Source: Polaromonas sp. (GTDB lineage: Bacteria; Pseudomonadota; Gammaproteobacteria; Burkholderiales; Burkholderiaceae_C). From it: a DNA stretch of 64,000 nucleotides. Below the pieces are notes generated by a model. That model was given only the letters and a program-made list of their open reading frames with translations, did no database searches and was not told where the DNA came from. Made by a program: the position numbers and the translations under genes. The stretch is taken from assembly GCA_043756405.1 (NCBI GenBank), contig JAYURC010000123.1, positions 3,836 through 67,835 of the forward strand, in the 5' to 3' direction. Shown piece after piece: positions 3,103 through 17,348 of the stretch; within the stretch, counting starts at the first letter, position 1, and each line of letters opens with the position of its first letter.

Positions 3103-3107
3103 TTCAA

Positions 3108-3809: not shown

Positions 3810-3827
3810 TAAGTTCTTTCAAATCGT

Positions 3828-4607
3828 TCAGCCAAAACGGCCAGTAATGTAGTCTTCGGTTTCTTTGCGTTTAGGCTTAAAAAACAGGTCTTCAGTCACC
3901 CCAAATTCCACAAGATCGCCCAGGTACATGTACGCCGTGTAGTCGCTGCAACGCGCCGCTTGCTGCATGTTGTGGGTCACGATCACAACTGTGTAGTCAT
4001 TTTTCAACTCAGTAATTAACTCTTCAACTTTAGCGGTAGAAATAGGATCGAGCGCTGAGCATGGCTCATCAAGCAACAGCACTTCAGGCTTGATTGCAAT
4101 GCCGCGTGCTATGCACAAGCGCTGCTGCTGACCGCCCGAAAGGCTTGATCCATTTTGATTTAACTTATCTTTGACTTCGCCCCACAGTGCCGCCTTGCGC
4201 AATGCCCATTCAACACGCTCATCCATGTCCGAGCTGCTTAGGCTTTCAAACAGTTTGACCCCAAATGAAATGTTGTCATAGATAGACATCGGAAAGGGTG
4301 TCGGTTTTTGAAAAACCATACCGACTTTTGATCGTATCAATGCCACGTCTTTTTTTGACGTCAAAAGGTTTTCACCTTCAAACATCACCGTCCCTTCGGC
4401 GCGTTGCTCAGGGTAGAGCTCGTACATGCGATTGAAAATGCGCAACAACGTTGATTTTCCGCACCCAGACGGTCCGATAAAAGCTGTTACTTTTTTCTCT
4501 GGAATTTCTAGATTAATATTTTTTAAGGCGTGAAATTTACCATAATAAAACTCAAGATTTTTTACAGAAATTTTGGGGTTTTCGATAGTTAGAGCTGCAG
4601 GCGGCAT
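3828..4607 (-). CDS. pstB: Phosphate ABC transporter ATP-binding protein PstB
   Basis: Walker [10 protein letters not shown], signature LSGGQQQRL, Walker B LLLDEP, and a typical PstB N-terminus ([12 protein letters not shown]). Confidence 0.95.
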
Positions 4608-4659
4608 ATTGTTTTATCTTTAAACGTTGGATAAGTAGATTTGCAGTAATGCAGAAAAG

Positions 4660-5520
4660 TTAAAGCTTATTTCGTGTCAAATAACGCGCCAGAATATTCA
4701 ACGCCAGTACTGCAGTGGTAATCAGCAAAACGCCAGCCCAAGCGAGGTTTTGCCAGTTTTCATAAGGACTCATCGCGTACTTGAATATCGTCACTGGCAA
4801 GCTAGCCATAGGTTCGGTCAAACTTGAAGTCCAAAACTGGTTACTTAACGCTGTAAATAACAGCGGTGCAGTCTCACCAGAAATGCGCGCCACTGCAAGC
4901 ATCACACCGGTGACAACTCCCGCTCTGGCGGCTTTCATTGTGATACTCAAGATAACCTTCCACTTTGGTGCGCCCAGCGCATACGCCGCTTCGCGCAACG
5001 CCGAAGGTATCAACTGAAGCATATTTTCAGTGGTGCGGATGACTACCGGAATAACGATTAGCGCAAGTGCAATGACACCCGCCCATCCGGAAAACGATTT
5101 GTAGCGGGATACAACAACCGCATAGACAAATAATCCAATCACAATTGATGGCGCAGATAACAAAATATCATTTACAAATCGTACTGTTGCAGACAGCCAG
5201 CTTTTGGTGTCGAATTCAGCCAAATAAATGCCTGCCATCACACCAATTGGCGTCCCCACGAATGTCGCCAACATCACCATCAAAAACGATCCGTAAATCG
5301 CATTGGCCAGGCCACCTGGGTCGTTTGGTGGTGGCGTCATTTGCGTTAACGTAGCGACAGACAGACCACTGATACCTAAGCGCAAAGTCTCAAAAAGAAT
5401 CCAGAACAACCAAAACAAACCGAACACCATTGCTGCCATAGCAAGAATAATTGCAAGGGCATTAATTTTTTTACGCCTGGCAAATTTAGCTTCACGGTGC
5501 ATTGTCAAGACTGCGTTCAT
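4660..5520 (-). CDS. pstA: Phosphate ABC transporter permease PstA
   Basis: 286-aa polytopic permease. It overlaps the pstC stop by 4 bp and has a PstA-like C-terminus (…[10 protein letters not shown]…). Confidence 0.9.
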
Positions 5521-6551
5521 GTGCGTGCTCCCTCACTTTTTTTGAGTTGTGAGAGAAGGAGCTTTGACATCGTCAACACAGCAAACGTGATGAAAAAGAG
5601 TACCAGACCCAAATACATCAGGGCACCTTGATGCAGTCCTTCGCCCGCTTCTGCAAACTCGTTGGCCAAAGCCGAAGTAATACTGTTGGCGGCAGTAAAT
5701 AAACTGAGCGACTCAAGTTGGTTGAAATTGCCGATTACAAAGGTAATGGCCATCGTTTCACCGATAGCACGCCCCAGTCCCAACATAATTCCACCAATAA
5801 CACCAGACTTGGTGTAGGGCAAAACAACCCGTGAAACAACTTCCCACGTAGTCGCACCCAAGGCATAAGCCGACTCTTTGAGTAATACAGGTGTCACCTC
5901 AAACACATCACGCATAACTGATGCAATGAATGGGATGATCATGATGGCCAAAATAATGCCTGCTGACAATATGCCGATGCCGACAGGCGCACCCGAAAAC
6001 AGAGTTCCGAGCAATGGGACGTCACCAAATGCTTTTTGCAACGGTTGCTGCACGTACGTTGACAGCACGGGTGCGAAAACCAGTAAGCCCCACATGCCAT
6101 AAACGATTGAAGGTACCGCTGCAAGTAACTCAATTGCAGTGCCTAAAGGCCGCCGCAGCCAAGCAGGCGACAGCTCAGTCAAAAATAATGCGATTCCAAA
6201 ACTGACCGGCACAGCAATGACCAAAGCCACCAAAGATGTCATTACTGTGCCGTAAATCATGACCAACCCGCCGAAATCCTCTTTGACAGGATCCCAGGTT
6301 GTGCTCACCAAAAACCCCAAACCGAACTTTGAGATTGCAGGCCATGCACTAATGGTTAGCGACACAAGTATCGCCACCAAAATTAGCAAAGTAAATATAG
6401 CCGCTCCTTTGGCAGCGGCTGCAAACAAAATGTCAAGCATTGGGCCTGAACGCGGTTTTTGACTGGGTGGTGGCGTTTTAATCATCACACTTCCGGTAGA
6501 ACCGGCAGAATTTTTTGAAGAAATAGGATTCGCGGGAAGTGTAGAAGACAA
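5517..6551 (-). CDS. pstC: Phosphate ABC transporter permease PstC
   Basis: 344-aa polytopic permease with a PstC-like core (…[13 protein letters not shown]…). The N-terminal start is not certain. Confidence 0.88.
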
Positions 6552-6589
6552 GCAGTTACTCCAAAAGTCAGACCGATGGAACAGTCTTA

Positions 6590-7633
6590 TTACTTGATAG
6601 CTACCGGTTTGCCCGAAACATCCGTTACTTTAGCCCAAGACTTCTCGATCGCACCAATCACGTCATCAGGCATAGGAACGTAGTCAAGCGCTGTAGCGGT
6701 TGCATCACCATTTTTGAAAGCCCACGTGAAGAACTTAAAAACTTCTGTTGCGTTAGCCGGCTTTTCCTGCTTCATGTTCATCAGAATAAACGTGGCTGTA
6801 GAGATTGGCCACGCATTTTTGCCAGGTTGGTCAGTGATCAATTGGAAAAATGATTTGTTCCAATCTGCACCGGCGGCAGCAGCTTTAAACGTGGTGTCGT
6901 CTGGCGCTACAAAAACGCCATCACGGTTTTTCATCAGCGTGTAGGTCATTTTATTTTGCTTGACATAAGAGTACTCAACATAGCCAATAGAGTTCGGCAA
7001 ACGTTTGACAAACGCAGCAACACCTTCATTACCTTTACCGCCAGCGCCTACTGGCCAGTTGACAGCAGTGCCCTCACCAACCTTAGCTTTCCATTCAGCA
7101 TTGACGCGTGACAGGTAGTTCGTGAAATTAAACGTTGTCCCAGATCCATCTGCGCGGCGAACAGGCGAAATTGTTGCGTCAGGCAATGGCAAAGCTGGAT
7201 TCAAAGCTTTGATAGCCGCGTCATTCCATTTAGTAATTTTGCCGAGATAGATGTCAGCCAGAACTTGACCGTCAAGTCTCATCTGGCCCGGCTCAACGCC
7301 TTTGATGTTCACTACAGGAACTGTGCCGCCAATCACCGCAGGAAACTGAATTTGACCTTTTTTTGCCAAAACATCATCTGTTTGAGGCATGTCAGAAGCA
7401 CCAAAATCAACAGTTTTTGAGTCAATCTGTTTGATACCAGCGCCGGATCCGATCGACTGGTAGTTGATTTTTACGCCGGTTGCCTTGTTGTAGTCAGCTG
7501 CCCACTTTGCATAGATGGGTGCCGGAAACGTTGCACCAGCGCCGGTGATTTCTTGGGCGCTTGCAAGCGTTGAAAGCGTGGCTGCCGCAGCTGCGAAAAC
7601 GCAAATTGAAGAGAATTTGTAACGCAATTTCAT
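6590..7633 (-). CDS. pstS: Phosphate-binding protein PstS
   Basis: 347 aa with a signal peptide and PstS motifs ([30 protein letters not shown]). Confidence 0.92.
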
Positions 7634-7667
7634 AAAGACCTCTCAAGTTAAAAAAGAAGATAGGGCG

Positions 7668-7701
7668 ACTGTAAGTAGCTTCTGTGACAAAGGCGTGACA
7701 T
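7668..7701 (-). promoter_or_regulatory. Pho box plus -10 element of the pstS promoter
   Basis: The minus strand reads ATGTCAC-GCCT-TTGTCAC (7701-7684), then exactly 10 nt, then TACAGT (7673-7668). This sits 35-70 bp upstream of the pstS ATG. One more TTGTCAC half-site lies at 7735-7729. Confidence 0.6.
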
Positions 7702-7766
7702 ATACCCTTACTCCTAGCCGATCCAATGGTGACAAATCTCCAGCACGTTGCACCAAGTTGTCTGCT

Positions 7767-7800
7767 TTGTCACGGTTTTGTCACTGTTTTCTTTTACGCT
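7767..7800 (+). promoter_or_regulatory. Pho box plus -10 element upstream of the fasciclin gene
   Basis: The plus strand reads TTGTCAC-GGTT-TTGTCAC (7767-7784), then 10 nt, then TACGCT (7795-7800). The fasciclin ATG is at 7831. Confidence 0.55.
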
Positions 7801-7830
7801 AACGCTTGTTTTTAAACAGGAGTAATTTAC

Positions 7831-8322
7831 ATGTTGAACATTTTTTCCAATCGTCGTTTGTTGATGGCTGCTGCCGTCATTACCGTTTTGTCTGGTTGCG
7901 CCACCCAGTCCAAGCCAGTGTCTGTAGCAGACACCATTGCCATGAAACCTGAACTGAGCACGCTCAGCGGTTTGGTGGTCAAAGCGGGTTTGACTGACAC
8001 GCTTAAAGGAACTGGGCCTTTTACTGTTTTCGCGCCCACCAATGCGGCATTTGCCAAAGTACCCGCAAAGACCATGGAAGACTTGGGCAAAGACCCAGCA
8101 AAATTGAAAGCAGTTTTGACGTACCACGTCGTGCCGGGCAAGGTCATGGCTGCTGATGTTAAAAACGGTAACGCAAAAACTGTTAACGGTGCTAGCTTGG
8201 CATTGTCGAAAGCTGGGGATTTCGTCACCGTTGAAGATGGCATGGTTCAAACCGCAGATTTGTCGGCGACCAATGGCGTTGTACACATTATTGACAGCGT
8301 TTTGATTCCACCCTCACGCTAA
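7831..8322 (+). CDS. Secreted fasciclin (FAS1) domain protein
   Basis: 163 aa with a lipoprotein-like signal (…LSGC) and FAS1 motifs (GPFTVFAPTNAAF, LTYHVVPGKV, NGVVHIIDSVLIP). Confidence 0.85.
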   Translation: MLNIFSNRRLLMAAAVITVLSGCATQSKPVSVADTIAMKPELSTLSGLVVKAGLTDTLKGTGPFTVFAPTNAAFAKVPAKTMEDLGKDPAKLKAVLTYHVVPGKVMAADVKNGNAKTVNGASLALSKAGDFVTVEDGMVQTADLSATNGVVHIIDSVLIPPSR

Positions 8323-8382
8323 CATTATTTAACTCTCTGTTGGCCAATCTTTGACTTCGGTTGGTCAATAAAATTTCTCATC

Positions 8383-8422
8383 AAAAGCCAGTTCTTTTAG
8401 ACTGAGAGCACTGGCTTTTTTT
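8383..8422 (+). terminator. Candidate intrinsic terminator after the fasciclin gene
   Basis: GCCAGT (8387-8392) pairs with ACTGGC (8410-8415), followed by a T7 run. The loop is long, so it is a weak candidate. Confidence 0.45.
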
Positions 8423-8434
8423 CGTCTGCTGTTC

Positions 8435-9979
8435 ATGTACGCTGAGTTCACCACGATAAACTCAGTCATGCAAAACGGAATTTTATTAGCCGCTGCGGAC
8501 TTGGGGTCCAACAGTTTTCGCCTTGAAATCGGCCGCTACGACACAGGTCAGATCACCCGCACCGAATACCTGAAGGAGACCGTTCGCCAAGGCAACGGTC
8601 TAGACGAAAACCGCAACTTGACATTGGATGCGATGCAGCGCGGTTGGGACTGTCTGGCGCGCTTTGGTGAAAGGCTGGCAGGCTTTAAAAAGTCGCAAGT
8701 TCGTGCCGTGGCAACACAAACCTTGCGAGAGGCCAGAAACCGGGACGAATTTCTGGTGCGCGGCAGCAAGCTGCTCGGCTTTCCAATCGACGTTATTGCG
8801 GGACGTGAAGAAGCCAGGCTCATTTATCAGGGCGTGGCACACATGCTGCCGCAGTCCGACGAGCGGCGCCTGGTCGTGGATATCGGCGGGCGCTCCACTG
8901 AAATGATTGTTGGTAAGGGCTTTGAAGCGCACACCATGGAGTCGTACAGGGTTGGCAGCGTGGCGTGGTCAATGAAGTACTTTCCCGATGGCCAATTTTC
9001 TGCACGTGCATTTGAAGACGCAGAAGTTGCTGCCAAGGCGATTTTGGACGAGGCCATCAATTTGTATCGTGCAAATGCCTGGGATGTCGCTTATGGCTCG
9101 TCCGGAACGATTGGCGCTGTCAGCGACGTCCTGTCGGCATCCGGTTGGGCACCTGGTTTGGTCACTCGAGAAGGGCTCGACTGGTTGCTGGATCGCTTGA
9201 TCAAGGCGCAAAGTGCTGATCGCCTGAAAATTGAAGGTATGAAGGATGACAGACGTGCCGTCATTGGAGGCGGTGTCAGCGTACTGCGCGCCGTTTTTGA
9301 CTTGCTTGACATTCACCAAATGCAAGCCGCTGTTGGTGCGCTGCGCCATGGTGTGCTGTATGACCTGGTGGACCGCGAGCAAGGCGTCACTGATCTGCGT
9401 TCTACGAGCGTTGATCGGTTAGCGAATAAATTTGGCACTGACACCATTCAGTCGTTGCGGGTCACCAAGGTGGCTCAGCAACTGTTTTTAATGCTGACGG
9501 GTCATCAGCGCGCCATCGAGACTGACCGCTTTTTACGCAAGCTGAAGTGGGCAGCGCAGCTTCATGAAATTGGCAGCCATATTTCGCATAGCGACTATCA
9601 CAGGCACGGCGCCTATATTCTGGGCAACACAGATGCGCCCGGTTTTGCTCTGCCAGAGCTGCACCGCTTAAGCCTGTTGGTGCTCGGTCACAGGGGCAAA
9701 CTGAGAAAGCTTGAAATAGACTTTGAAGATGACTCATTTATCCAGCAGCTACTTTGCTTGCGCATAGCCGTCATCTTGTGCCATGCCCGACGCGACCCGG
9801 ATTTACAGGGCTTGCAGCTTGATGTGAACCGTGAGTCCGGAAAAATTTTTGTATTGAACTATAGATTCGGCTGGTCACAAGCATTTCCGCAATCAGCCCA
9901 TTTACTGCGTGAAGAAGTTCTGGCATGGCAAAAAACGCCTTGGACTCTGGTTGTTTCTGAGCTGCCATTTGTAGATTAA
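8435..9979 (+). CDS. ppx: Exopolyphosphatase (Ppx/GppA family)
   Basis: N-terminal actin-like ATPase motif AAADLGSNSFRLEI and DIGGRSTE, plus a C-terminal HD-like region. The true start may be the Met at 8468. Confidence 0.9.
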   Translation: MYAEFTTINSVMQNGILLAAADLGSNSFRLEIGRYDTGQITRTEYLKETVRQGNGLDENRNLTLDAMQRGWDCLARFGERLAGFKKSQVRAVATQTLREARNRDEFLVRGSKLLGFPIDVIAGREEARLIYQGVAHMLPQSDERRLVVDIGGRSTEMIVGKGFEAHTMESYRVGSVAWSMKYFPDGQFSARAFEDAEVAAKAILDEAINLYRANAWDVAYGSSGTIGAVSDVLSASGWAPGLVTREGLDWLLDRLIKAQSADRLKIEGMKDDRRAVIGGGVSVLRAVFDLLDIHQMQAAVGALRHGVLYDLVDREQGVTDLRSTSVDRLANKFGTDTIQSLRVTKVAQQLFLMLTGHQRAIETDRFLRKLKWAAQLHEIGSHISHSDYHRHGAYILGNTDAPGFALPELHRLSLLVLGHRGKLRKLEIDFEDDSFIQQLLCLRIAVILCHARRDPDLQGLQLDVNRESGKIFVLNYRFGWSQAFPQSAHLLREEVLAWQKTPWTLVVSELPFVD

Positions 9980-9986
9980 AAGTGCG

Positions 9987-10029
9987 TTGACACTTAAGTT
10001 GTAAACCGTATAAACTATATATACGGTTT
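9987..10029 (+). promoter_or_regulatory. Sigma70-like promoter overlapped by a perfect 10-bp inverted repeat
   Basis: TTGACA (9987-9992), a 16-nt spacer, then TATAAA (10009-10014). AAACCGTATA (10003-10012) and TATACGGTTT (10020-10029) form a perfect inverted repeat across the -10 and likely start site. An AAGGAA ribosome-binding site precedes the ATG at 10058. Confidence 0.4.
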
Positions 10030-10057
10030 ATCCTGCATTCAACAACAAAGGAAATTT

Positions 10058-10498
10058 ATGGCGACTGCAAAAACACCATCCCAAGCAGCAACTCCCGTAG
10101 TTGCTGCGCCTGAAAAGACTTTACCGAAAAGTGCGCCGGTAAAACCCCAACCGGCCAAAACTTCCCGATCAGTAAATGCGGGGGCAACTAAAACTGTGAC
10201 TGCGAAACCAGCACCCAAAAAAGCGCAGCCAACAACTACCCAAACTGTTGTTAAAACTGCTGCTAAAAAGCCTAAAAAAGCAAAATTGGTTCGCGACAGT
10301 TTCACTATTCCAAAACCTGAATACGTCGTTTTGGACTCGCTCAAACTGCGCGCCGCCAAGCTGGGTCGTTCAGTCAAAAAGAGCGAATTACTGCGGGCTG
10401 GCATCAAAGAATTGGCAGCCTTGGCTGATGCCGCGTTTTTGAGCTCGCTAGAAAAAGTCCCCGTCATTAAGACAGGACGTCCGACAACCGCCAAGTAG
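10058..10498 (+). CDS. Lys/Ala/Pro-rich (histone-H1-like) protein with ribbon-helix-helix-like C-terminal domain
   Basis: 146 aa. Residues ~1-75 are low-complexity A/K/P/T (…KPAPKKAQP…TAAKKPKKAK…). The C-terminal ~60 aa (DSFTIPKPEYVVLDSLKLRAAKLGRSVKKSELLRAGIKELAAL) fit a strand-helix-helix pattern. It has a good ribbon-binding site and promoter. Confidence 0.6.
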   Translation: MATAKTPSQAATPVVAAPEKTLPKSAPVKPQPAKTSRSVNAGATKTVTAKPAPKKAQPTTTQTVVKTAAKKPKKAKLVRDSFTIPKPEYVVLDSLKLRAAKLGRSVKKSELLRAGIKELAALADAAFLSSLEKVPVIKTGRPTTAK

Positions 10499-10501
10499 CC
10501 G

Positions 10502-10975
10502 CTACATCACCTCTGGTGATTGCACGGTCACGACGACTGTCTGGCTGTGTCCATCACGCTCACGGTTACGCAACCACCAGAGGGCGCCTTTTTTAACGGA
10601 GCATTCGCTTTCTTTTAATACCAAAAGTTGAGCAATGATTTGTCCCAACGTTGGCTGGTGGCCGATGACTAAAACTGGGTACTTGTTGTTTGGCCACTGG
10701 ACCAGTTCCAGCAACTGAGCCGGGGTGGCGTCCGGTGCAATTTCTGCACGAACTTTATATTTACGCCCCAAGGCCAAGGCCGTTTGCTCGCAGCGCCTTG
10801 CCGGGCTGACCAAAATGCGTGCACCTTCGGGCAGTTGTCTGTCCAGCCATGCGGCCATACGGGCGGCCTGTTTTTCACCACGCTGAGTCAGTGAGCGGTC
10901 CAGATCAAGCCCCGACACCCCGTCGTTAAAAATCCAGTCCTCAGCCTCTGCATGACGCCACAATATCAAGTCCAT
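10502..10975 (-). CDS. sixA: Phosphohistidine phosphatase SixA (histidine phosphatase superfamily)
   Basis: 157 aa with the N-terminal RHAEA catalytic motif (LILWRHAEAED) and GHQP near the C-terminus. It lies 19 bp downstream of ppk. Confidence 0.8.
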   Translation of the reverse strand: MDLILWRHAEAEDWIFNDGVSGLDLDRSLTQRGEKQAARMAAWLDRQLPEGARILVSPARRCEQTALALGRKYKVRAEIAPDATPAQLLELVQWPNNKYPVLVIGHQPTLGQIIAQLLVLKESECSVKKGALWWLRNRERDGHSQTVVVTVQSPEVM

Positions 10976-10994
10976 GGTCGGCTCTTCTGCTGTT

Positions 10995-13073
10995 TTACTT
11001 TTTATGCTTGGCTGTGGCGGCGTAACGCCTCATCAGCGCAGCCTGGGCGCCGTTACCAGCGTCGCCATTGATCCGCCTGTAGCTGCCGTTTGATTGCAGT
11101 TCCCATGCATCGACTTCGTCGTGTAGATATGGCACAAGGCATTCATCAACAATGCGTTGTCTGATCAAAGGGTCGGTAACAGGCCAGGCCAGTTCAATAC
11201 GGCGCAGCATGTTGCGATTCATCCAGTCGGCACTTGATAGAAGCAAGGTTTCTTCGTCGCCGTTTCGAAAATAAAACACCCTTGAATGCTCAAGAAAACG
11301 GCCAATCACTGATCGCACACGAATGTTGTCGGTGACGCCGGGCACCTGAGCGGGCAGCATGCAGGCACCGCGAACGATCAGGTCAATCTTGACGCCTCGC
11401 TGTCCCGCTCTGACAAGTGCAAGCATTAACGCTTCGTCAGTCAGCGCGTTCATTTTGGCGACGATGCGCGTGTCCTTTCCTTTGGCTACCGCGTCGCCTA
11501 ACGCATCAATTTTCTCAATCAATTTACGTTGTAGGTGGAACGGGGCCAACAACAGATGATGCAGCTTGGGCAAGCGACTCTGGCTGGCCAGGTGAACAAA
11601 AACGCTGTCCATGTCTGCTGTCAGCAAGGGCTCGGCTGTCAGGTAGCTGATGTCGGTGTACAGCTTGGCGGTTCGAGGGTTGTAATTGCCGGTTGACAAA
11701 TGCCCGTAGCGCACCAAGTTGCGGCCTTCACGCCGGGTGACAAGCAACATCTTGGCGTGGGTTTTCAGCCCCACCACACCGTACAGCACCTGGGCGCCCA
11801 CGGACTCCAGCATTTCAGCCCAGTTGATGTTGGCTTCCTCGTCAAATCGAGCCTTCAGCTCAACCACCACTGTCACCTCTTTGCCGCGCCTCACGGCTTC
11901 ACGCAGCAACTGCATCAGCTCTGAATCTGCGCCCGTGCGGTAAATGGTTTGCTTGATGGCCAAAACCGACGGATCGTTAACGGCCTCCCGCAAGAAAGCT
12001 AAAACACCTTCAAAACTTTCAAAAGGCTGATGAATCGACACGTCACCTTGTTTAAGACGCTCAAAAAACGACTGGCCTGAAACCAACTGCGCTGGGTAGC
12101 CCGCGTTGTAAGTTGGAAACAACAATTTCGGGTCGTTGACCAAATCCACGATTTGCGTCAACCGAGACAAATTGACCGGGCCGTGTACGCGATACAAGGC
12201 AAGCTCAGGCAAGTCAAACTGCTTGAGAAGAAAACCAGACAGATATTCGGAGCAGCCCGCTGACACCTCAAGCCGCACCGCCTGACCGTAATGACGCTGC
12301 TCTAACCCCTGGCGAAGCGCGGTACGCAGGTTCTGAACATCGTCTTCGTCAACGGCGAGGTCTGAGTGGCGCGTCACCCGAAACTGCGAGAACTGCTCCA
12401 TCACCCGTCCTGGGAACAGTTCTGCCAAGTGCGCTCTGATAACACTTGAAAGTGATACGAACAGCCTGCCTTTGTTGCTGCCCCGTGCAGGCATGTGGGT
12501 GAAGCGCGGCAGTACCCGCGGGACTTTCACAATGGCAATGTCGTTCTCACGCCCAAACGCATCGTGCCCGCTCAAACGAACAATAAAGTTAAGTGATTTA
12601 TTGGCCACCTGCGGAAAAGGATGCGACGGGTCCAAGCCAACCGGTATCAGCAACGGCCGCACTTCACGCTCAAAGTAGGCTTTGACCCAACGGCGCTGCT
12701 CGGCATTTCGTTCGCCGTGCGAGACGATGCGAATTCCCTGACGCCCGAATTCTGGCAGCAAATCGTCGTTGTAAAGTGAATACTGGCGCGCCACCAGATC
12801 ATGAGCAACCTCTGACAGTGCCCTGAACGACTCTGCCGTGTAGAGACCTTTGTTGTCATTGGCGATTGCTGCCGTCAAATGCGGCTCAGCGCGCACTTCA
12901 AAAAATTCATCCAGGTTGGATGAGACGATACACAAATATCGCAGCCGCTCTAACAGCGGTACATCAGACCTTTTGGCCCAGTCCAGTACGCGCTCATTAA
13001 ATGCCAGGATGCTGTGATCGCGATCCAAAAACTGAAAGGGTTTGACGGAAGTTAAAGCGTTTAAATTGATCAA
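10995..13073 (-). CDS. ppk: Polyphosphate kinase 1
   Basis: 692 aa with PPK1 hallmarks (FLDRDHSILAFNERVL, SNLDEFFEVR, two PLD-like HxK regions including GLKTHAKM). Confidence 0.95.
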   Translation of the reverse strand: MINLNALTSVKPFQFLDRDHSILAFNERVLDWAKRSDVPLLERLRYLCIVSSNLDEFFEVRAEPHLTAAIANDNKGLYTAESFRALSEVAHDLVARQYSLYNDDLLPEFGRQGIRIVSHGERNAEQRRWVKAYFEREVRPLLIPVGLDPSHPFPQVANKSLNFIVRLSGHDAFGRENDIAIVKVPRVLPRFTHMPARGSNKGRLFVSLSSVIRAHLAELFPGRVMEQFSQFRVTRHSDLAVDEDDVQNLRTALRQGLEQRHYGQAVRLEVSAGCSEYLSGFLLKQFDLPELALYRVHGPVNLSRLTQIVDLVNDPKLLFPTYNAGYPAQLVSGQSFFERLKQGDVSIHQPFESFEGVLAFLREAVNDPSVLAIKQTIYRTGADSELMQLLREAVRRGKEVTVVVELKARFDEEANINWAEMLESVGAQVLYGVVGLKTHAKMLLVTRREGRNLVRYGHLSTGNYNPRTAKLYTDISYLTAEPLLTADMDSVFVHLASQSRLPKLHHLLLAPFHLQRKLIEKIDALGDAVAKGKDTRIVAKMNALTDEALMLALVRAGQRGVKIDLIVRGACMLPAQVPGVTDNIRVRSVIGRFLEHSRVFYFRNGDEETLLLSSADWMNRNMLRRIELAWPVTDPLIRQRIVDECLVPYLHDEVDAWELQSNGSYRRINGDAGNGAQAALMRRYAATAKHKK

Positions 13074-13139: not shown

Positions 13140-14276
13140 CTATGACAGCGGTGCAGAAGGATTTTTGGCCAAATTGACAGGGGCCAGGTTTGCTTTCACG
13201 CTCTCGGCATTTTTCACCGCCCGATCGGGGTGTGCAAACACCAGAAAACTGTCAAACAAGCGGGTAGCGTGCGCCCAACCGAAATCTAGCGCACGTAAAC
13301 GAGCCTCGTGGCGGGGCACGGCAAGCGCCTGGTAACAAGCCGTTTGCAAGTCAGCATGCATAACGCCGCCGTGATGCTGTCCGTTATCTGTGCCCCCTGC
13401 CTTGCACAACACCTCCAGCGGGCCATCGACTGGGTAAGCTGCAACCGGCGTGCCAGTGGCCATTGCCTCCAGCATCACCAGGCCAAAGGTTTCCGACCGG
13501 CTGGGAAACACAAACACATCGGCTGCGGCATACACCTTGGCCAACTGTTGCCTGGGGAGTATGCCCATCCAACGCACGTGCGGGTAACGTTGCTTCAAGC
13601 TCGCTTCGAGTGGCCCGACACCACAGACGACTTTCGTGCCAGGAATATCGAGGCTTAAAAAAGCGTCGATGTTTTTTTCATAAGAGACGCGACCGACAAA
13701 TAGCGAAATGGGCCGCAGCAGCGTGCCCATGGGCGGATTCATTACCGGTAACAAGCGAGGTTGCGGCTGGTAAACAAACAGTTCAGTGTCCACGCCATGT
13801 GTCCAGCTGCGCAGATTTTGAAAACCACGTTGTTCCAGCATGCGCAGCACACCTTGTGTCGGCACCATCACCCCAGACGATGGTTTGTGAAAGTACCTGA
13901 ACAGCGCATAACCCCATGACAACGGAACCCTTAAGGCGGCGTGCAATATTTCAGGAAATTTTGTGTGAAATGCGGTGGTAAACCTCAAACCACGCTTGCG
14001 GCAATAACCGCGCGTCGCCCAGCCCAACGGCCCTTCAGTAGCAATGTGAATCGCCTCGGGTGCAAAGGTATCGAGCTTTTCGGTCAGCACGCGCTTGGGA
14101 GAAACAGCCAGGTCAATGCCGGCATAGCCGGGACAAGGCCGGGTTTTAAACAGGCCGGGGTGAATGACTTCAATCGTGTGGCCAAGTGCCTGCAGCTCAC
14201 GAACCAGCTCGACCAGTGTGGTCACTACGCCGTTGACCTGTGGTTGCCAGGCGTCAGTAATCAGTGCAATTCTCAT
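13140..14276 (-). CDS. GT4-family glycosyltransferase (Agt-like candidate glycolipid synthase)
   Basis: 378 aa with N-terminal MRIALITDAWQPQVNGVV and a C-terminal GT1/GT4 motif (FVFPSRSETFGLVMLEAMATGTPV). It lies 13 bp downstream of the PlcP-like gene. Confidence 0.75.
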   Translation of the reverse strand: MRIALITDAWQPQVNGVVTTLVELVRELQALGHTIEVIHPGLFKTRPCPGYAGIDLAVSPKRVLTEKLDTFAPEAIHIATEGPLGWATRGYCRKRGLRFTTAFHTKFPEILHAALRVPLSWGYALFRYFHKPSSGVMVPTQGVLRMLEQRGFQNLRSWTHGVDTELFVYQPQPRLLPVMNPPMGTLLRPISLFVGRVSYEKNIDAFLSLDIPGTKVVCGVGPLEASLKQRYPHVRWMGILPRQQLAKVYAAADVFVFPSRSETFGLVMLEAMATGTPVAAYPVDGPLEVLCKAGGTDNGQHHGGVMHADLQTACYQALAVPRHEARLRALDFGWAHATRLFDSFLVFAHPDRAVKNAESVKANLAPVNLAKNPSAPLS

Positions 14277-14289
14277 ATTCGCTGTTCCA

Positions 14290-15162
14290 TCAGGCAGTCA
14301 AGGGCTGGCCAATATGTGTCCTGCTTTGTGTATCGTGTGCGGGTGCCCAGTGCAGTAACTCCAGCACACCGTCAAAATGTTCAACCAGCGCGGTGCGGCT
14401 TTCTACCCAGTCGCCATCGTTGCAGTACAGCACACCGTTGATGTCACGCATTTCAGCGCGGTGAATGTGCCCGCACACAACGCCCTGGTGGCCCCGGTTG
14501 CGCGCTTCGTTGGCCACCGCCTCTTCAAAATCGGTCACGTAATTCAAAGCACTTTTGACTTTTTGCTTCAAGTAAGCAGACAACGACCAGTACGGTAACC
14601 CCAGACGGGCGCGCAAGCTGTTCAGGTAGCGATTGAGCTTGAGCGTGAACTCATACAAGTTGTCACCCACAATCGCCAGCCAGCGGGCGCACTGCACCAC
14701 GGCATCAAAGTAGTCACCATGGATGACCCACAACTGGCGCCCGTCGGCAGTTATATGCACGGCTTCTTCCATCACCTCAATGTCGCCGAAGCGATGGCCA
14801 ATAAACTCGCGCGCAAACTCGTCGTGGTTGCCGGGTATAAAAACCACACGGCAGCCCTTGCGCGCTCGCTTGAGGAGTTTTTGCACCACATCGTTGTGGG
14901 CTTGTGGCCAATACCACTTGCGGCGCAGTTGCCAGCCGTCAATGATGTCACCCACGAGGTACAGATTGTCGCTGGGGTGCGCTTTTAAAAAGTCTAGGAG
15001 TGCATGCGCCTGGCAGCCGGGCGTACCCAAATGCAGGTCAGAAATAAAAATGGTGCGGTAACGTTTGCACTGCGATTCATCGTCCAGGTTCTGCTGTGGC
15101 TGGTCATCCGCTCCAGATATATTGCCCATCGAACCCAAAGCGTCAAACATCGTGCGCATCAC
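14290..15162 (-). CDS. LpxH-related metallophosphoesterase, PlcP-like (candidate phospholipase C)
   Basis: Calcineurin-like motifs ISDLHLG, GDIIDGW, GNHDEF and GHIH, plus the WYWPQAHNDVVQKLL segment I associate with the PlcP branch rather than true LpxH. It overlaps the upstream gene by 4 bp. Confidence 0.7.
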   Translation of the reverse strand: MMRTMFDALGSMGNISGADDQPQQNLDDESQCKRYRTIFISDLHLGTPGCQAHALLDFLKAHPSDNLYLVGDIIDGWQLRRKWYWPQAHNDVVQKLLKRARKGCRVVFIPGNHDEFAREFIGHRFGDIEVMEEAVHITADGRQLWVIHGDYFDAVVQCARWLAIVGDNLYEFTLKLNRYLNSLRARLGLPYWSLSAYLKQKVKSALNYVTDFEEAVANEARNRGHQGVVCGHIHRAEMRDINGVLYCNDGDWVESRTALVEHFDGVLELLHWAPAHDTQSRTHIGQPLTA

Positions 15163-16019
15163 ACGGCTGCAGGTTTTGCCGTGAAATGCTTTAAAAAGCG
15201 CGGCGGCAGATCGCCAATGCGCATCATCATCGGCAAATCGGCTGAATTGAAGTCAGGGTCCCAAGCTGGCGCACCCAGCACCTTTGCCCCTAGGCGCAAG
15301 TAACCGCGAATCAGTGCGGGTGGCTCGATGTTTAAAGAATCATCAAGCCTGTCTACCGGCAACGCCAGGCGCGGCGTGACGTGGTACTCAATGGGTGCCA
15401 GGTGCGTTTGCTTGACTTGCCGCCAAATGCTGGCGGCTGCCTGCCCACTGCTGGTGCCGCCAGTTTGCATCGGAATGCTGGCGCAACCAATCATGGTGTC
15501 CAACTGGTTGCGCGCCATGAATTCGGCCAGTGCGCTCCAGAGCGCCAGAATCACGCCGCCAGAGCGGTGGTCTGCATGCACACAACTGCGGCCCAACTCA
15601 ACCATTCGCTCACGCAGGCTGCGCAGGCGTGTCAGGTCAAATTCAGTATCGCTGTAAGTGCTGCCAGCGCGCTTGGCTTGTGTTGGCGTCAGTACGCGGT
15701 AGGTGCCAATCACTTCCCCACTGACTTCGTCGCGAACCAGCAAATGCTCACAATAATCGTCAAACAGGTCAATGTCGTGGCCAGGCAGGGTGTTGGGCAG
15801 CGAAGCACCCATTTCAACCGCAAAAACCTGATACCTTAAACGCTGCGCCGCCCGAACCTCGTCCTGATGCCGGGCCCAGCTGACGGAGATTTTCCCCACG
15901 GCAGGCCTTTGAACAACATCGGAAATGACAGTTTGACCGCTTGGACAAAGTGACCCCCGAATAACTTGTGGCATGGCCACCGGTGACAAGGCGAAAGTGG
16001 GATTTGGCAGTTCTTTCAT
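15159..16019 (-). CDS. OlsB-like GNAT N-acyltransferase (aminolipid N-acyl amino acid synthase)
   Basis: 286 aa. The segments AAQRLRYQVFAVEMGA…DLFDDYCEHLLV…GTYRVL…SDTEFDL…ELGRSCVHADHR match the ornithine/glutamine-lipid OlsB family pattern. An AGGAG ribosome-binding site lies 5 nt before the ATG. Confidence 0.75.
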   Translation of the reverse strand: MKELPNPTFALSPVAMPQVIRGSLCPSGQTVISDVVQRPAVGKISVSWARHQDEVRAAQRLRYQVFAVEMGASLPNTLPGHDIDLFDDYCEHLLVRDEVSGEVIGTYRVLTPTQAKRAGSTYSDTEFDLTRLRSLRERMVELGRSCVHADHRSGGVILALWSALAEFMARNQLDTMIGCASIPMQTGGTSSGQAAASIWRQVKQTHLAPIEYHVTPRLALPVDRLDDSLNIEPPALIRGYLRLGAKVLGAPAWDPDFNSADLPMMMRIGDLPPRFLKHFTAKPAAV

Positions 16020-16073
16020 GGCAGCTCCTGGCGTTTGTAGTTAGCTATTGAGTCAGTCGGCAAAATTTGCTGT

Positions 16074-16097
16074 AAAAAAAGCCCTGGGGTCGGGGCT
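16074..16097 (-). terminator. Terminator-like hairpin upstream of the olsB-like gene
   Basis: The minus strand reads AGCCC-cgacccca-GGGCT followed by a T run (A74-A80 on the plus strand). It lies 55 nt upstream of the olsB-like ATG. Confidence 0.4.
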
Positions 16098-16298
16098 GCT
16101 TGAGAAAGGTCACTTGATGGTCATTGGATAAACGGGCTGCATGCTGTGGAGCCCTTCGAGCCAGGGCCTGGCTCCGGGCTTGAATCGCAACCCGCCCGGG
16201 CTATTGGCTAACGACAAGGCGGTGCAACGCAAGATGCGAAGACATTGCTGGTTAAAGGTACTGACCACGGCGGGGATTGTGTTTTCTCTCATGACCAA

Positions 16299-16354
16299 AT
16301 TATGGGCACTTGAGGTGACACGCTTGTGTCAGTTGCGTTGCAGTTATGTGACAG
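16299..16354 (-). promoter_or_regulatory. Tandem Pho boxes plus -10 hexamer
   Basis: The minus strand reads CTGTCAC-ATAA-CTGCAAC-GCAA-CTGACAC-AAGC-GTGTCAC (16354-16315), four 7-mers in 11-bp phase. Exactly 10 nt later comes CATAAT (16304-16299). Confidence 0.6.
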
Positions 16355-16391
16355 GACAGAGGCTTGCTTGCCTGTCTGCAGGGCTGCTGAG

Positions 16392-16441
16392 TGCTATAAA
16401 TTAAGGAGCAGTGCGCACAACAATATGTTGAGCTGGAGACC
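16392..16441. repeat. Dispersed ~50-bp intergenic repeat, copy B
   Basis: TGCTATAAATTAAGGAGCAGTGCGCACAACAATATGTTGAGCTGGAGACC aligns by hand with copies at 38701, 51963 and (partially) 44296-44346. It shares the GCTAT-AT-rich-AGGAGC and GCGC…GCT(A/G)(C/G)AG(G/A)C modules. Confidence 0.6.
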
Positions 16442-16476
16442 AAAAATGTATATGAAAAAGCCTGTTTAGGACTTTC

Positions 16477-17280
16477 TCAAGCCCGTTTTGATGCCCAAAT
16501 CCACATCCAGACGCCGCCCAGCATCATCGGCACGCACAGCCATTGGCCCATGCTCATGCCCAACTGCAAGATACCGAGGTGCGCGTCGGGTTCGCGGAAA
16601 AATTCGGCAATAAACCGGAACACGCCATAGCCGAATAAAAACGCGCCGGAGACTTGACCCATTTTTCGCGGTTTGCGGGCGTACAGCCATAACAAGATGA
16701 ACAGCAGCAAGCCTTCCAGCAAAAACTGATAAATTTGTGAAGGGTGGCGCGGCAATGGGCCACCGTCTCTGAACAGCATGCCCCACGGTAGCGACGGGTC
16801 AGCCACCCGGCCCCACAGCTCGCCATTGATGAAGTTCCCTGCGCGGCCTGCCGCCAGCCCGGTAGGCACACAGGGCGCAATAAAGTCCATCACCTGCAGC
16901 CACGGCCGCTGGCGCGTACGGGCAAACCACCACTGCGACACCAGCACGCCAATCAAACCGCCATGAAAACTCATGCCCCCTTGCCAGATGTAAAAAATTT
17001 CCAGGGGGTGACTGGCGTAGTAAGCGGGTTTGTAAAACAGGCAGTAGCCTATGCGCCCACCAATAATCACACCCATCACGCCCAAAAACAAAATATCTTC
17101 AATGTCCCGCTTGCGCCACGCACCGGCGCCCTGGATGGATGCAAAGGGCTGATGCTTCAGTCGCAGCGTGGCCAGAAAGAAAAACAAGCCGAACGCGGCA
17201 AGATATGTCAGGCCATACCAATGAATGGCCAGGGGGCCAAGTTGCAGGGCAACGGGATGAATTTCTGGATGGATAAGCAT
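16477..17280 (-). CDS. lgt: Prolipoprotein diacylglyceryl transferase
   Basis: Lgt motifs are present ([24 protein letters not shown], [13 protein letters not shown]). The ATG at 17280 is preferred over the longer ORF start at 17322. Confidence 0.9.
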
Positions 17281-17348
17281 GGCGACATTTTGCACGCATC
17301 GTGGTTGAACAAATACAATCAAATTTGAACAAACTCACGAGATACGCC

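What the first reader, a model, noticed from the sequence alone, without database searches (positions are those of the whole stretch)
16074..16354. Tandem Pho boxes drive a structured ~215-nt transcript ending in a terminator-like hairpin just before the lipid-remodelling operon
Four 7-mers in 11-bp phase (CTGTCAC-ATAA-CTGCAAC-GCAA-CTGACAC-AAGC-GTGTCAC) are followed after exactly 10 nt by CATAAT. This places a start site near 16292, about 270 nt upstream of the olsB-like ATG. The intervening RNA contains a perfect GAGCCAGG-G-CCTGGCTC hairpin (16158-16174), a CCGGGC/GCCCGG stem (16174-16199), and AGCCC-N8-GGGCT plus a T run (16097-16074). This could be a Pho-regulated small RNA, a transcription-attenuating leader for the operon, or a leaderless mRNA for a 60-aa ORF (ATG at 16292). 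None of these is a described element that I recognise.
Basis: partly seen in the sequence, partly recalled or inferred. Interest (0 to 1): 0.65.

Follow-up and report, generated by a model that had tools for sequence, protein, structure and literature searches.

The report
Phosphate-regulated leaderless small-protein gene before olsB
The "structured 215-nt RNA" is really the messenger for a conserved but uncharacterised 60-amino-acid protein, switched on by a phosphate-starvation promoter and followed by a leaky terminator in front of the membrane-lipid remodelling genes; the promoter and terminator are ordinary, and the small protein is the only new part.

Summary
The four-repeat Pho-box array is unique in the 64-kb window, scores above all 100 randomisations, and is conserved in about 65 related loci.

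The interpretation needs sorting:
- **Coding, not structured RNA.** The region between promoter and terminator is the 60-aa ORF on the minus strand (16292..16110). In 52 orthologues the third codon position varies most, and pN/pS is 0.27 in this frame.
- **Leaderless start.** The ATG lies exactly 7 nt (or 8) after the -10 hexamer in 38 of 51 loci. Where a 22-27-nt leader exists, a Shine-Dalgarno-like motif appears.
- **Linkage to olsB.** In distant relatives the ORF overlaps the olsB-like start by ATGA.
- **Internal hairpins are by-products** of Pro/Gly/Arg/Trp codons. All pairs survive in only 2 of 52 and 4 of 52 loci, with no excess stability.
- **The 3' hairpin is a real, conserved intrinsic terminator.** The window copy is weakened by one mismatch. 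It sits between the small ORF (or phoX in other Polaromonas) and olsB.

The protein family (about 280 clusters, all "hypothetical", no Pfam, NCBIfam or PDB match) always sits upstream of an olsB-like gene. Its function is unknown, and no transcript data exist for this organism.

The parts
16315..16354 (-). Four Pho-box 7-mers in 11-bp phase (CTGTCAC, CTGCAAC, CTGACAC, GTGTCAC). Predicted PhoB binding site that replaces the -35 element.
   Evidence: Read. Scores 24/28, unique in the window and above all 100 randomisations. Conserved in about 50 small-ORF loci and 13 phoX-type loci.
16299..16304 (-). -10 hexamer CATAAT, 10 nt downstream of the last Pho-box repeat.
   Evidence: The consensus CAnAAT/CAnACT sits at the same spacing in the related loci.
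16110..16292 (-). Leaderless small-protein gene (60 codons plus TGA): MRENTIPAVVSTFNQQCLRILRCTALSLANSPGGLRFKPGARPWLEGLHSMQPVYPMTIK. The conserved core is residues 18-48.
   Evidence: Orthologous ORFs in 52 loci. Entropy by codon position 0.55/0.33/1.22. pN/pS 0.27. ATG at the predicted +1 or +2 in 38 of 51 loci. 281 database homologues.
16158..16199 (-). They lie in codons for SPGGLRFKPGARPWL and are a by-product of coding.
   Evidence: All pairs are kept in only 2 of 52 and 4 of 52 orthologues. MFE z against synonymous-codon resampling is -0.44.
16074..16097 (-). Intrinsic terminator (AGCCC CGACCCCA GGGCT plus T7), 12 nt after the small ORF stop codon. It is a weakened copy of the conserved AGCCCCG-ACCC-CGGGGCT-T6 terminator.
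   Evidence: The stem is kept and the loops vary in about 45 loci, with dG of -10.6 to -15.6 kcal/mol. The window copy is -7.4 kcal/mol because of one C.A mismatch.
16017..16029 (-). Shine-Dalgarno AGGAG (16029-16025) and ATG (16019-16017) of the olsB-like N-acyltransferase gene, the first enzyme gene of the lipid-remodelling operon.
   Evidence: AAGGAG/CAGGAG is conserved in nearly all loci. Pfam Acetyltransf_5 and NCBIfam OlsB models, the latter below cut-off.
13140..16019 (-). Downstream operon: olsB-like GNAT (16019..15159), metallophosphoesterase that is PlcP-like by context (15162..14290), and GT4 glycosyltransferase (14276..13140). ppk1 follows at 13073..10995.
   Evidence: Pfam and NCBIfam scans.

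Best explanation
A PhoB-type promoter starts transcription at or within 1 nt of the A of ATG 16292. The promoter consists of four Pho-box repeats in place of a -35 element, 10 nt, and CATAAT.

The resulting leaderless mRNA encodes a 60-aa protein of an uncharacterised family. Its conserved core is L-R-I-L-R-C-T-A-x-A-[LM]-A-x-S-P-G-G-L-R-F-x-[PA]-G-x-R-P-W-L-E-G-L, which is predicted to be a cationic helix followed by a Pro/Gly-rich segment.

Twelve nt after its stop codon lies a conserved intrinsic terminator, so two products are expected:
- an abundant RNA of about 220 nt, the monocistronic small-protein mRNA;
- a read-through transcript that carries Pho control into the olsB-like, phosphoesterase and glycosyltransferase genes, and possibly ppk.

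The small protein is therefore the first cistron of the phosphate-starvation lipid-remodelling operon. It most likely acts in trans together with the OlsB-like acyltransferase, as partner, regulator or membrane tether.

**Shown by comparison:** the promoter module, the coding status, the linkage to olsB, and the terminator.

**Inferred:** the transcription start, PhoB dependence, the extent of read-through, and the protein's function.
For: **Promoter**
- establish the array and its significance.
- It is conserved with fixed spacing in the related loci.
- phoR, phoB, phoU, pstBACS, ppx and ppk lie in the same window.
- The pstS promoter has the same box type and the same 10-nt spacing to its -10.
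- Pho boxes upstream of olsB and plcP are established in other bacteria (PMC7814305; PMC4796936 and PMC8528852, listed).

**Coding status**
- 52 orthologous ORFs keep the frame at lengths of about 60-105 aa.
- Third-position entropy is 1.22 against 0.55 and 0.33 for positions 1 and 2.
- pN/pS is 0.27 in the sense frame, the lowest of six frames.
- The wobble-sharing antisense frame is interrupted in 45 of 52 loci.
- 281 homologous clusters at 90% identity and about 135 at 50% identity are all small proteins.

**Leaderless start**
- An in-frame ATG (never GTG or TTG) lies 7 or 8 nt after the -10 hexamer in 38 of 51 loci.
- Where the ATG is 22-27 nt downstream, a GGAG-like motif precedes it.

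**Linkage to olsB**
- The ORF lies immediately upstream of the olsB-like gene in all 52 loci.
- The two genes overlap by ATGA in independently retrieved distant members L081, L082/83, L084 and L086/87. The downstream gene is confirmed olsB-like by Pfam in L081, L082 and L086.

**Terminator and read-through**
- The stem is conserved with variable loops.
- The scan finds no sigma-70-like promoter between terminator and olsB.
- No Pho box lies there either.
- In 13 Polaromonas loci the same promoter and the same terminator flank phoX instead of the small ORF. There the only Pho boxes are 2.1 kb upstream of olsB.
Against: - There is no transcript evidence for this organism.
- The one usable metatranscriptome, laid on the JS666-like locus L023, is ambiguous. 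Its contig ends 2 nt after the terminator U-tract but begins 23 nt upstream of the ATG. Depth is about 3, and the companion run covers the promoter, so DNA or read-through from lgt may be present.
- In 13 of 51 loci the first in-frame ATG is 8-27 nt downstream of the predicted start, so leaderless initiation is not universal.
- The conserved terminators have dG of -10.6 to -15.6 kcal/mol. If they are efficient, olsB would need another promoter that I did not detect.
- The ORF has been lost, truncated or replaced in some close relatives: L010/L011, L041 and the phoX-type loci. It is therefore not essential for olsB function.
- The AlphaFold model is of low confidence (pLDDT 64) and gives no functional clue.
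Confidence: 0.72

Rival explanations
1. The ORF is translated, but its role is in cis. It would be a regulatory leader peptide whose translation or nascent chain tunes terminator read-through or translational coupling into olsB. Examples of such action are ribosome pausing or arrest on the conserved 31-aa core, possibly in response to a metabolite such as ornithine. No free protein function would be needed.
For: - The ORF is always directly upstream of olsB. It is followed by a terminator 7-18 nt after the stop codon or is coupled to olsB by an ATGA overlap.
- The N- and C-terminal parts vary in length and sequence, while a block of about 31 aa is conserved. That block is rich in Pro, Gly, Arg and Trp and is about the length of the ribosomal exit tunnel.
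- Precedents exist from established knowledge and the literature. Leaderless short ORFs act as attenuators in mycobacteria (bioRxiv 10.1101/834739, listed). TnaC is listed, and ornithine-sensing SpeFL is known to me from memory.
Against: - The distance from the conserved core to the stop codon, the terminator or the olsB start varies from 11 to about 45 codons. That is hard to reconcile with a stalled ribosome acting on a fixed downstream RNA element.
- I saw no conserved alternative (antiterminator) pairing. The only candidate, GGGCT in the E-G-L codons, varies at third positions.
- The same terminator functions behind phoX, where no leader peptide is involved.
- At 60-105 aa the ORF is long for a leader peptide.
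Confidence: 0.15
2. The region is a Pho-regulated non-coding small RNA or structured cis-regulatory leader whose hairpins are the functional parts.
For: - A discrete RNA of about 220 nt is indeed expected between the promoter and the terminator.
- The window sequence contains two inverted repeats.
Against: - No Rfam match has an E-value below 0.9.
- Folding is no better than shuffles, z = +0.37. It is also no better than synonymous-codon resampling, mean z = -0.44.
- The 8-pair hairpin is fully kept in 2 of 52 orthologues and the 6-pair stem in 4 of 52.
- The substitution pattern is that of a protein.
- Relatives carry Shine-Dalgarno-led or ATGA-coupled versions of the ORF.
Confidence: 0.03
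3. The conservation reflects a gene on the opposite strand (the plus-strand ORF 16141..16404, 87 aa), or simply a chance open frame in GC-rich DNA.
For: - The plus-strand ORF shares wobble positions with the minus-strand ORF, so it also shows a lowish pN/pS of 0.37.
- It is open across the core in 47 of 52 loci.
Against: - Over the span of the sense ORF, the antisense frame carries at least one stop in 45 of 52 loci.
- It would run through the Pho boxes and has no conserved start.
- The sense frame has the lowest pN/pS. Its second codon position is more conserved than its first.
- Promoter-aligned ATGs, Shine-Dalgarno motifs and ATGA coupling all belong to the sense frame.
Confidence: 0.02

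Closest known systems
PhoB-activated (Pho-box) promoters, e.g. E. coli pstS/phoA, and the Pho boxes described upstream of olsB and plcP (PMC7814305, PMC4796936, PMC8528852)
   Same: - Direct 7-bp repeats of the CTGTCAT type lie in 11-bp phase, replace the -35 element and end 10 bp before the -10.
- The promoter drives phosphorus-free lipid synthesis genes.
- phoBR is encoded nearby.
   Different: - There are four repeats (two full boxes).
- The promoter does not abut olsB. It first drives a leaderless small ORF and a terminator.
- PhoB binding and induction have not been tested.
Leaderless mRNAs that encode a short first cistron of a polycistronic transcript, e.g. mycobacterial leaderless sORFs (PMC4633059; bioRxiv 10.1101/834739)
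   Same: - An AUG sits at the predicted transcription start with no Shine-Dalgarno sequence.
- A short ORF is the first gene of an operon.
   Different: - The host is a betaproteobacterium, where leaderless mRNAs are uncommon (my own knowledge).
- The peptide has a conserved 31-aa core rather than a run of regulatory codons.
- The start site is inferred, not mapped.
Intra-operon intrinsic terminators that set differential expression (partial read-through)
   Same: A GC-rich stem plus U-tract lies between a promoter-proximal gene (the small ORF, or phoX in relatives) and distal genes that have no detectable promoter of their own.
   Different: - Read-through efficiency is unknown.
- The window copy carries a destabilising G-to-A change (-7.4 against about -13.5 kcal/mol).
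Regulatory nascent peptides (TnaC, SecM, SpeFL)
   Same: A conserved Trp/Pro/Gly/Arg-containing peptide block is encoded directly upstream of a regulated gene, with variable flanks.
   Different: - There is no sequence similarity to these peptides.
- The distance from the core to downstream signals is variable.
- No stalling data exist.
- The comparison is a resemblance recalled from memory, not a membership.

Membership tests
PhoB-dependent (Pho-box) promoter | Two or more direct 7-bp repeats resembling CTGTCAT, separated by 4 bp (11-bp phase) | tested here: met
   Four repeats match 7, 5, 6 and 6 of 7 positions. The total of 24/28 is unique in the window and above the maximum of 21 in 100 randomisations.
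PhoB-dependent (Pho-box) promoter | The boxes take the place of the -35 element and end about 10 bp upstream of a -10 hexamer | tested here: met
   Exactly 10 nt separate GTGTCAC from CATAAT. The spacing is the same in about 65 related loci and at the pstS promoter of this window.
PhoB-dependent (Pho-box) promoter | The organism encodes PhoB/PhoR | tested here: met
   A histidine kinase, an OmpR-type response regulator, phoU and pstBACS lie at window 1046-7633.
PhoB-dependent (Pho-box) promoter | PhoB binding and induction under phosphate limitation | not testable with these tools
   No expression data exist for this organism.
Leaderless mRNA | The transcription start coincides with the A of the start codon | not testable with these tools
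   This is only inferred. The ATG begins 7 nt after the -10 hexamer here. It lies 7 or 8 nt after it in 38 of 51 orthologous loci. The metatranscriptome contig on L023 neither confirms nor excludes it.
Leaderless mRNA | The start codon is AUG, as required for 5'-terminal initiation according to established knowledge | tested here: met
   In all 38 loci with a promoter-aligned start the codon is ATG, never GTG or TTG.
Protein-coding gene (small protein) | Substitution pattern with codon periodicity and purifying selection in one frame | tested here: met
   Entropy by codon position is 0.55/0.33/1.22. pN/pS is 0.27 in the sense frame, against 0.37 in the wobble-sharing antisense frame and more than 1.2 in the other four.
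Protein-coding gene (small protein) | Conserved open frame with translation-initiation signals across relatives | tested here: met
   The frame is open in 52 of 52 loci. The start is either promoter-aligned or Shine-Dalgarno-led. Distant members overlap olsB by ATGA.
Protein-coding gene (small protein) | Detected translation product | not testable with these tools
   No ribosome profiling or proteomics data are available.
Intrinsic (Rho-independent) terminator | A GC-rich stem-loop immediately followed by a U-tract, conserved in position | tested here: met
   The stem AGCCCC(G)/(C)GGGGCT plus T5-7 occurs in about 45 loci with variable loops. The window copy has 5 pairs plus T7, dG -7.4 kcal/mol.
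Intrinsic (Rho-independent) terminator | RNA 3' ends at the U-tract | tested here: inconclusive
   One low-depth metatranscriptome contig on L023 ends 2 nt after the U-tract. This is anecdotal.
Structured non-coding RNA (sRNA, riboswitch or structured leader) | Match to a described RNA family | tested here: not met
   The best Rfam E-value is 0.97, to an unrelated eukaryotic lncRNA model.
Structured non-coding RNA (sRNA, riboswitch or structured leader) | Helices conserved or covarying among relatives, with stability above background | tested here: not met
   All pairs are kept in 2 of 52 and 4 of 52 loci. The z-score is +0.37 against shuffles and -0.44 against synonymous resampling.
Leader-peptide transcription attenuator (trp/his type) | Mutually exclusive antiterminator and terminator pairings, and regulatory codons in the leader ORF | tested here: inconclusive
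   I saw no conserved antiterminator segment and no codon run. I did not run a systematic search for alternative structures.

The most novel reading that the evidence does not exclude
The conserved 31-aa core would be a nascent-chain sensor: a ribosome arrest or pause peptide that responds to a metabolite of the aminolipid pathway, such as ornithine, or to phosphate status. By stalling, it would set how much transcription or translation passes from the Pho promoter into the olsB-like operon. That would be a new class of regulatory peptide for membrane-lipid remodelling.
Probability: 0.1. Interest if true: 0.8.

Novelty: new member of a known kind. Interest (0 to 1): 0.4.

Why it matters
Replacing phospholipids with ornithine or other amino lipids and glycolipids is a major bacterial response to phosphorus scarcity. 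Its enzymes (OlsB, PlcP, Agt) and its PhoB control are known, but no small accessory protein has been described.

In this case a conserved small protein is encoded between the Pho promoter and olsB throughout a clade of freshwater, soil and ice Comamonadaceae, mostly Polaromonas. In distant members it is translationally coupled to olsB. It is therefore a concrete and cheap-to-test candidate for a missing partner or regulator of aminolipid synthesis.

The locus is also a clean natural example of a PhoB-type promoter that apparently fires directly onto an AUG. A terminator in the same cassette would split output between the first gene (the small ORF or phoX) and the lipid genes.

For genome scanning, the case shows that hairpins in GC-rich intergenic-looking DNA can simply be Pro/Gly/Arg codons of an unannotated small gene.

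Tried and rejected
- **Rfam.** A scan of 15800-16700 at a permissive threshold gave only chance-level hits.
- **Folding.** The whole leader is no more stable than shuffles.
- **Transcript evidence.** No RNA run holds the window sequence. A root metatranscriptome laid on the related locus L023 had a depth of about 3 and ambiguous 5' ends.
- **Function by homology.** Pfam, NCBIfam and PDB sequence searches found nothing. A profile search of 1.84 billion representatives found only small proteins of the same family, plus two giant repetitive proteins that match a low-complexity stretch.
- **Structure.** AlphaFold2 with 45 sequences gave pLDDT 64, one long helix and a short one. I judged this too poor for a meaningful fold search, so none was run.
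- **Antisense-gene hypothesis.** Examined and rejected.
- **A promoter between terminator and olsB.** The consensus scan found none. By eye, the conserved TTTACA in the terminator tail has no conserved -10 partner.
- **Literature.** Searches for Bpro_2242, and for olsB combined with leader peptide, uORF or leaderless, found no description of this ORF.
Full report
**1. What is in the sequence**

I read the minus strand of 15700-16700.
- Four 7-mers, CTGTCAC / CTGCAAC / CTGACAC / GTGTCAC, lie at 16354-16315 in 11-bp phase.
- Exactly 10 nt follow, then CATAAT (16304-16299), then 6 nt, then ATG (16292).
- The inverted repeats lie at 16174-16158 and at 16199-16194 / 16179-16174.
- AGCCC-N8-GGGCT plus a 7-T run lies at 16097-16074.
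- AGGAG and the ATG of the next gene lie at 16029-16017.

The flanking genes on the minus strand, in order, are lgt (17322..16477), an OlsB-like GNAT N-acyltransferase (16019..15159), a calcineurin-like phosphoesterase (15162..14290), a GT4 glycosyltransferase (14276..13140) and ppk1 (13073..10995).

Further along, the same window holds ppx, an unassigned 190-aa ORF, pstSCAB, phoU, phoB and phoR. The locus therefore sits at the edge of a complete Pho island.

OlsB-based retrieval of 80 loci from GTDB genomes places the window in Polaromonas / Comamonadaceae.

**2. Is the Pho-box array more than chance?**

Yes.
- Against CTGTCA[CT] in four phased positions it scores 24 of 28. It is the only site of 22 or more on either strand of the 64 kb. 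The best of 100 Markov-1 randomisations reached 21.
- The module (four boxes, 10 nt, CAnAAT) recurs upstream of the olsB-like gene in nearly every related locus.
- The pstS promoter of this window has the same box type, with the same 10-nt gap to its -10.
- Pho boxes upstream of olsB and plcP are established in other bacteria (PMC7814305, read; PMC4796936 and PMC8528852, listed).

The promoter part of the finding is therefore real, but it is an ordinary kind of element.

**3. What lies between promoter and terminator**

BLASTN of the intergenic region against the 80 loci showed that its middle part (window about 16257-16150) is conserved much further out than its flanks.

TBLASTN with the 60-aa ORF then found a conserved peptide core, LRILRCTAxAxAxSPGGLRFKPGxRPWLEGL, in 51 of the related loci. 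That makes 52 orthologous cores when the window is counted.

Four tests show that this is coding sequence in the minus-strand frame:
- **(i) Codon periodicity.** In 52 distinct 93-nt cores, column entropy by codon position is 0.55 / 0.33 / 1.22, and all 31 third positions vary.
- **(ii) Selection by frame.** Nei-Gojobori pN/pS is 0.27 in this frame. It is 0.37 in the one antisense frame that shares its wobble positions, and above 1.2 in the other four.
- **(iii) The antisense frame is broken.** That frame corresponds to the plus-strand ORF 16141..16404. It carries stops in 45 of 52 loci over the span of the sense ORF.
- **(iv) Frame maintenance.** The sense frame stays open although the proteins range from about 60 to 105 aa, with unrelated N- and C-terminal tails.

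**4. Leaderless start**

The ATG position is promoter-aligned in most relatives:
- 29 loci have the in-frame ATG exactly 7 nt after the -10 hexamer. That count comprises 26 scored directly, two with an additional ATG 6 nt upstream, and L069 by inspection.
- 9 loci have it at 8 nt.
- Together these make 38 of the 51 loci with a clear Pho array.
- The codon there is always ATG. That fits the known AUG requirement of 5'-terminal initiation (my own knowledge).

In the remaining 13 loci the first in-frame ATG lies 8-27 nt downstream.
- Where the leader is 22-27 nt, a GGAG-like motif sits at Shine-Dalgarno distance. Examples are GAAGGAG in L060, AAGGA in L062/65/66, GGGAG in L074, AGGTGGA in L081 and GAGGAG in L082.
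- Two alternative ways of recruiting ribosomes to the same ORF is strong comparative evidence that it is translated.

**5. The internal hairpins**

Both lie inside the codons for S-P-G-G-L-R-F-K-P-G-A-R-P-W-L.
- The 8-pair repeat (which cannot form with a 1-nt loop anyway) keeps all pairs in 2 of 52 orthologues.
- The 6-pair CCGGGC/GCCCGG stem keeps all pairs in 4 of 52. The residual 4-5 pairs arise because Pro-Gly codons (CCN GGN) are nearly self-complementary.
- The core folds no better than the same peptides re-encoded with synonymous codons (mean z -0.44).
- The whole 273-nt leader folds no better than dinucleotide shuffles (z +0.37).
- Rfam has no match.

The structured-RNA reading is not supported.

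**6. The 3' hairpin is a genuine, conserved terminator**

- About 45 loci carry AGCCCC(G)-loop-(C)GGGGCT followed by T5-7 and usually ACAG. The stem is kept and the loops vary freely from 4 to 16 nt, one lineage having an inner helix. The dG ranges from -10.6 to -15.6 kcal/mol.
- The window copy has one G-to-A change, which produces a C.A mismatch and lowers the stability to -7.4 kcal/mol.
- The terminator starts 12-13 nt after the small-ORF stop codon in the closest relatives, and 7-18 nt after it in others.
- Between the terminator and the olsB ATG (about 55 nt) there is no Pho box and no sigma-70-like promoter by the scan's criteria.

**7. Natural variants that inform the mechanism**

- **(a) No terminator.** Two freshwater Comamonadaceae / Rhodoferax clades lack it: L050/53/54/58/59/61/63/67 and L062/64/65/66. 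There the small ORF ends 9 or 46 nt before olsB.
- **(b) Translational coupling.** In more distant, independently retrieved family members the small ORF overlaps the next gene by ATGA. These are L081, L082/83, L084 and L086/87. Pfam confirms that next gene as Acetyltransf_5 (OlsB-like) in L081, L082 and L086.
- **(c) phoX in the same slot.** In 13 Polaromonas loci the same promoter drives phoX. The match runs right down to CAGAAT-CACGCC-AT, with ATG changed to ATC. The same terminator and olsB follow, and there are no other Pho boxes within 2.1 kb. The unit is thus a cassette of Pho promoter, first gene, terminator and olsB operon. Pho control of the lipid genes must pass through the terminator.
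- **(d) Ancestral-looking arrangement.** More distant genera have the Pho boxes 85-95 nt upstream of olsB with no small ORF. These are Ottowia, Ramlibacter, Limnohabitans and others: L070-73, L075, L076, L078-80.
- **(e) Loss.** The ORF is deleted in L010/L011 and truncated in L041, so it can be dispensed with.

**8. The protein**

- The search for homologous proteins returned 281 clusters at 90% identity. All are 'hypothetical protein' or unnamed, and none has a Pfam domain. An example is Bpro_2242 of Polaromonas sp. JS666.
- A profile search of 1.84 billion representatives found 137 hits. 135 are small proteins of 51-184 aa. The other two are giant repetitive proteins that match a short Pro/Gly stretch many times, presumably spuriously.
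- Distant members keep T-A-x3-L-A-x2-P-G-G-L-R-F-x-P-G-S-R-P-W-L. The Cys is not invariant.
- NCBIfam and PDB sequence searches are empty.
- AlphaFold2 predicts a helix over residues 8-30 (pLDDT about 81) and a short helix over 43-49, at low overall confidence (pLDDT 64, pTM 0.35). Read directly, LRILRCTAKAMA is an amphipathic, cationic helix.
- There is no signal peptide and no transmembrane segment.
- One database entry, P0236, fuses the N-terminal half of the core to an OlsB fragment. It looks like a deletion or assembly artefact, and I give it little weight.

**9. Transcript evidence**

- No RNA run holds the window sequence.
- On the related locus L023, a root metatranscriptome gave a 330-nt contig covering 3591-3920. 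It ends 2 nt past the terminator U-tract but begins 23 nt upstream of the ATG.
- A second contig starts 23 nt before the olsB ATG.
- Depth is about 3, and the companion run covers the promoter region. DNA carry-over or read-through from lgt therefore cannot be excluded.
- I treat this evidence as inconclusive.

**10. Mechanism proposed**

Under phosphate limitation, PhoB~P binds the four repeats and recruits RNA polymerase to the CATAAT -10. Transcription starts on the AUG. 70S ribosomes translate the 60-aa protein without a Shine-Dalgarno sequence.

Most transcripts end at the terminator, giving an mRNA of about 220 nt. A fraction reads through and expresses the OlsB-like acyltransferase, the phosphoesterase and the glycosyltransferase. 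That fraction is probably larger here because the stem is weakened.

The small protein's invariable position, and its translational coupling to olsB in distant members, point to a function with that enzyme. That function is inferred and has not been shown.

The main rival is a cis-acting regulatory peptide. I rate it at about 0.15, mainly because the distance from the conserved core to any downstream signal is so variable.

**11. Comparison with known systems, and novelty**

- The promoter is a standard Pho-box promoter, and the terminator is a standard intrinsic terminator.
- A leaderless mRNA whose short first cistron precedes an operon is known from mycobacteria and others (PMC4633059; bioRxiv 10.1101/834739).
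- The new element is the family itself. It is a conserved, unnamed small protein tied to aminolipid synthesis genes and to the Pho regulon. No model or paper describes it.
- I therefore file the finding as a new member of a known kind: a small-protein gene in a Pho operon.
- It is of moderate interest. The structured-RNA claim that motivated the original score does not hold.

Noticed in passing
window 1046-13073: A complete Pho island lies next to the finding. It comprises phoR (1046-2389, -), phoB (2386-3102, -), phoU (3108-3809, -), pstB/A/C/S (3828-7633, -), an unassigned 190-aa ORF with a probable signal sequence (7714-8286, -), ppx (8435-9979, +) and ppk1 (10995-13073, -).
   Followed up: partly
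window about 7695-7660 (minus strand): The pstS promoter reads ATGTCAC-GCCT-TTGTCAC, then 10 nt, then TACAGT. That is the same box type and spacing as at 16354-16299. Further upstream, at about 7785-7765, inverted GTGACA repeats occur.
   Followed up: partly
L020, L027, L028, L035, L037, L039, L040, L042, L044, L045, L049, L052, L057 (about 2.1 kb upstream of olsB): In these Polaromonas loci the homologous Pho-box promoter and the same terminator flank phoX (alkaline phosphatase) instead of the small ORF. The small-ORF ATG position reads ATC, and phoX has its own Shine-Dalgarno sequence. This is a gene swap within one promoter-terminator cassette.
   Followed up: yes
L010/L011 (169 nt upstream of olsB); L041 (about 335 nt upstream): The small ORF is lost in close relatives. 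L010/L011 keep the Pho boxes but lack both the ORF and the terminator. In L041 the ORF is truncated after ...AMASSP by an internal deletion.
   Followed up: partly
protein P0236 (184 aa, metagenomic): This is an in-frame fusion of the N-terminal half of the small-protein core to an OlsB fragment, with a garbled C-terminus. It is probably a deletion or assembly artefact rather than a true domain fusion.
   Followed up: no
proteins P0188 (5738 aa) and P0191 (7149 aa): Two giant proteins match profile positions 37-54 (the PGGLRF..PG stretch) 12-13 times each. They are presumably repetitive, low-complexity matches unrelated to the family.
   Followed up: no
L023 3591-3920 and 3978-4246: One root-metatranscriptome contig ends 2 nt after the terminator U-tract. 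Another begins 23 nt upstream of the olsB ATG, with no coverage in between. Depth is about 3, so this is only a hint of termination and of a possible separate 5' end.
   Followed up: partly
window 16141-16404 (+): An 87-aa plus-strand 'shadow' ORF lies opposite the small gene and the Pho promoter. It shares wobble positions with the real gene but is interrupted in most relatives.
   Followed up: yes
window 15159-16019 (-) and the operon: The OlsB-like protein scores well below the NCBIfam OlsB equivalog cut-offs (159 against 350 bits), and no olsA-type acyltransferase is in the operon. The lipid it makes may not be a canonical ornithine lipid.
   Followed up: no
window 16453-16479 (-): A weak terminator-like hairpin overlaps the lgt stop codon (10 pairs, 3 of them G-C, poor T-run). 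Read-through from lgt into the Pho promoter region is therefore possible.
   Followed up: no
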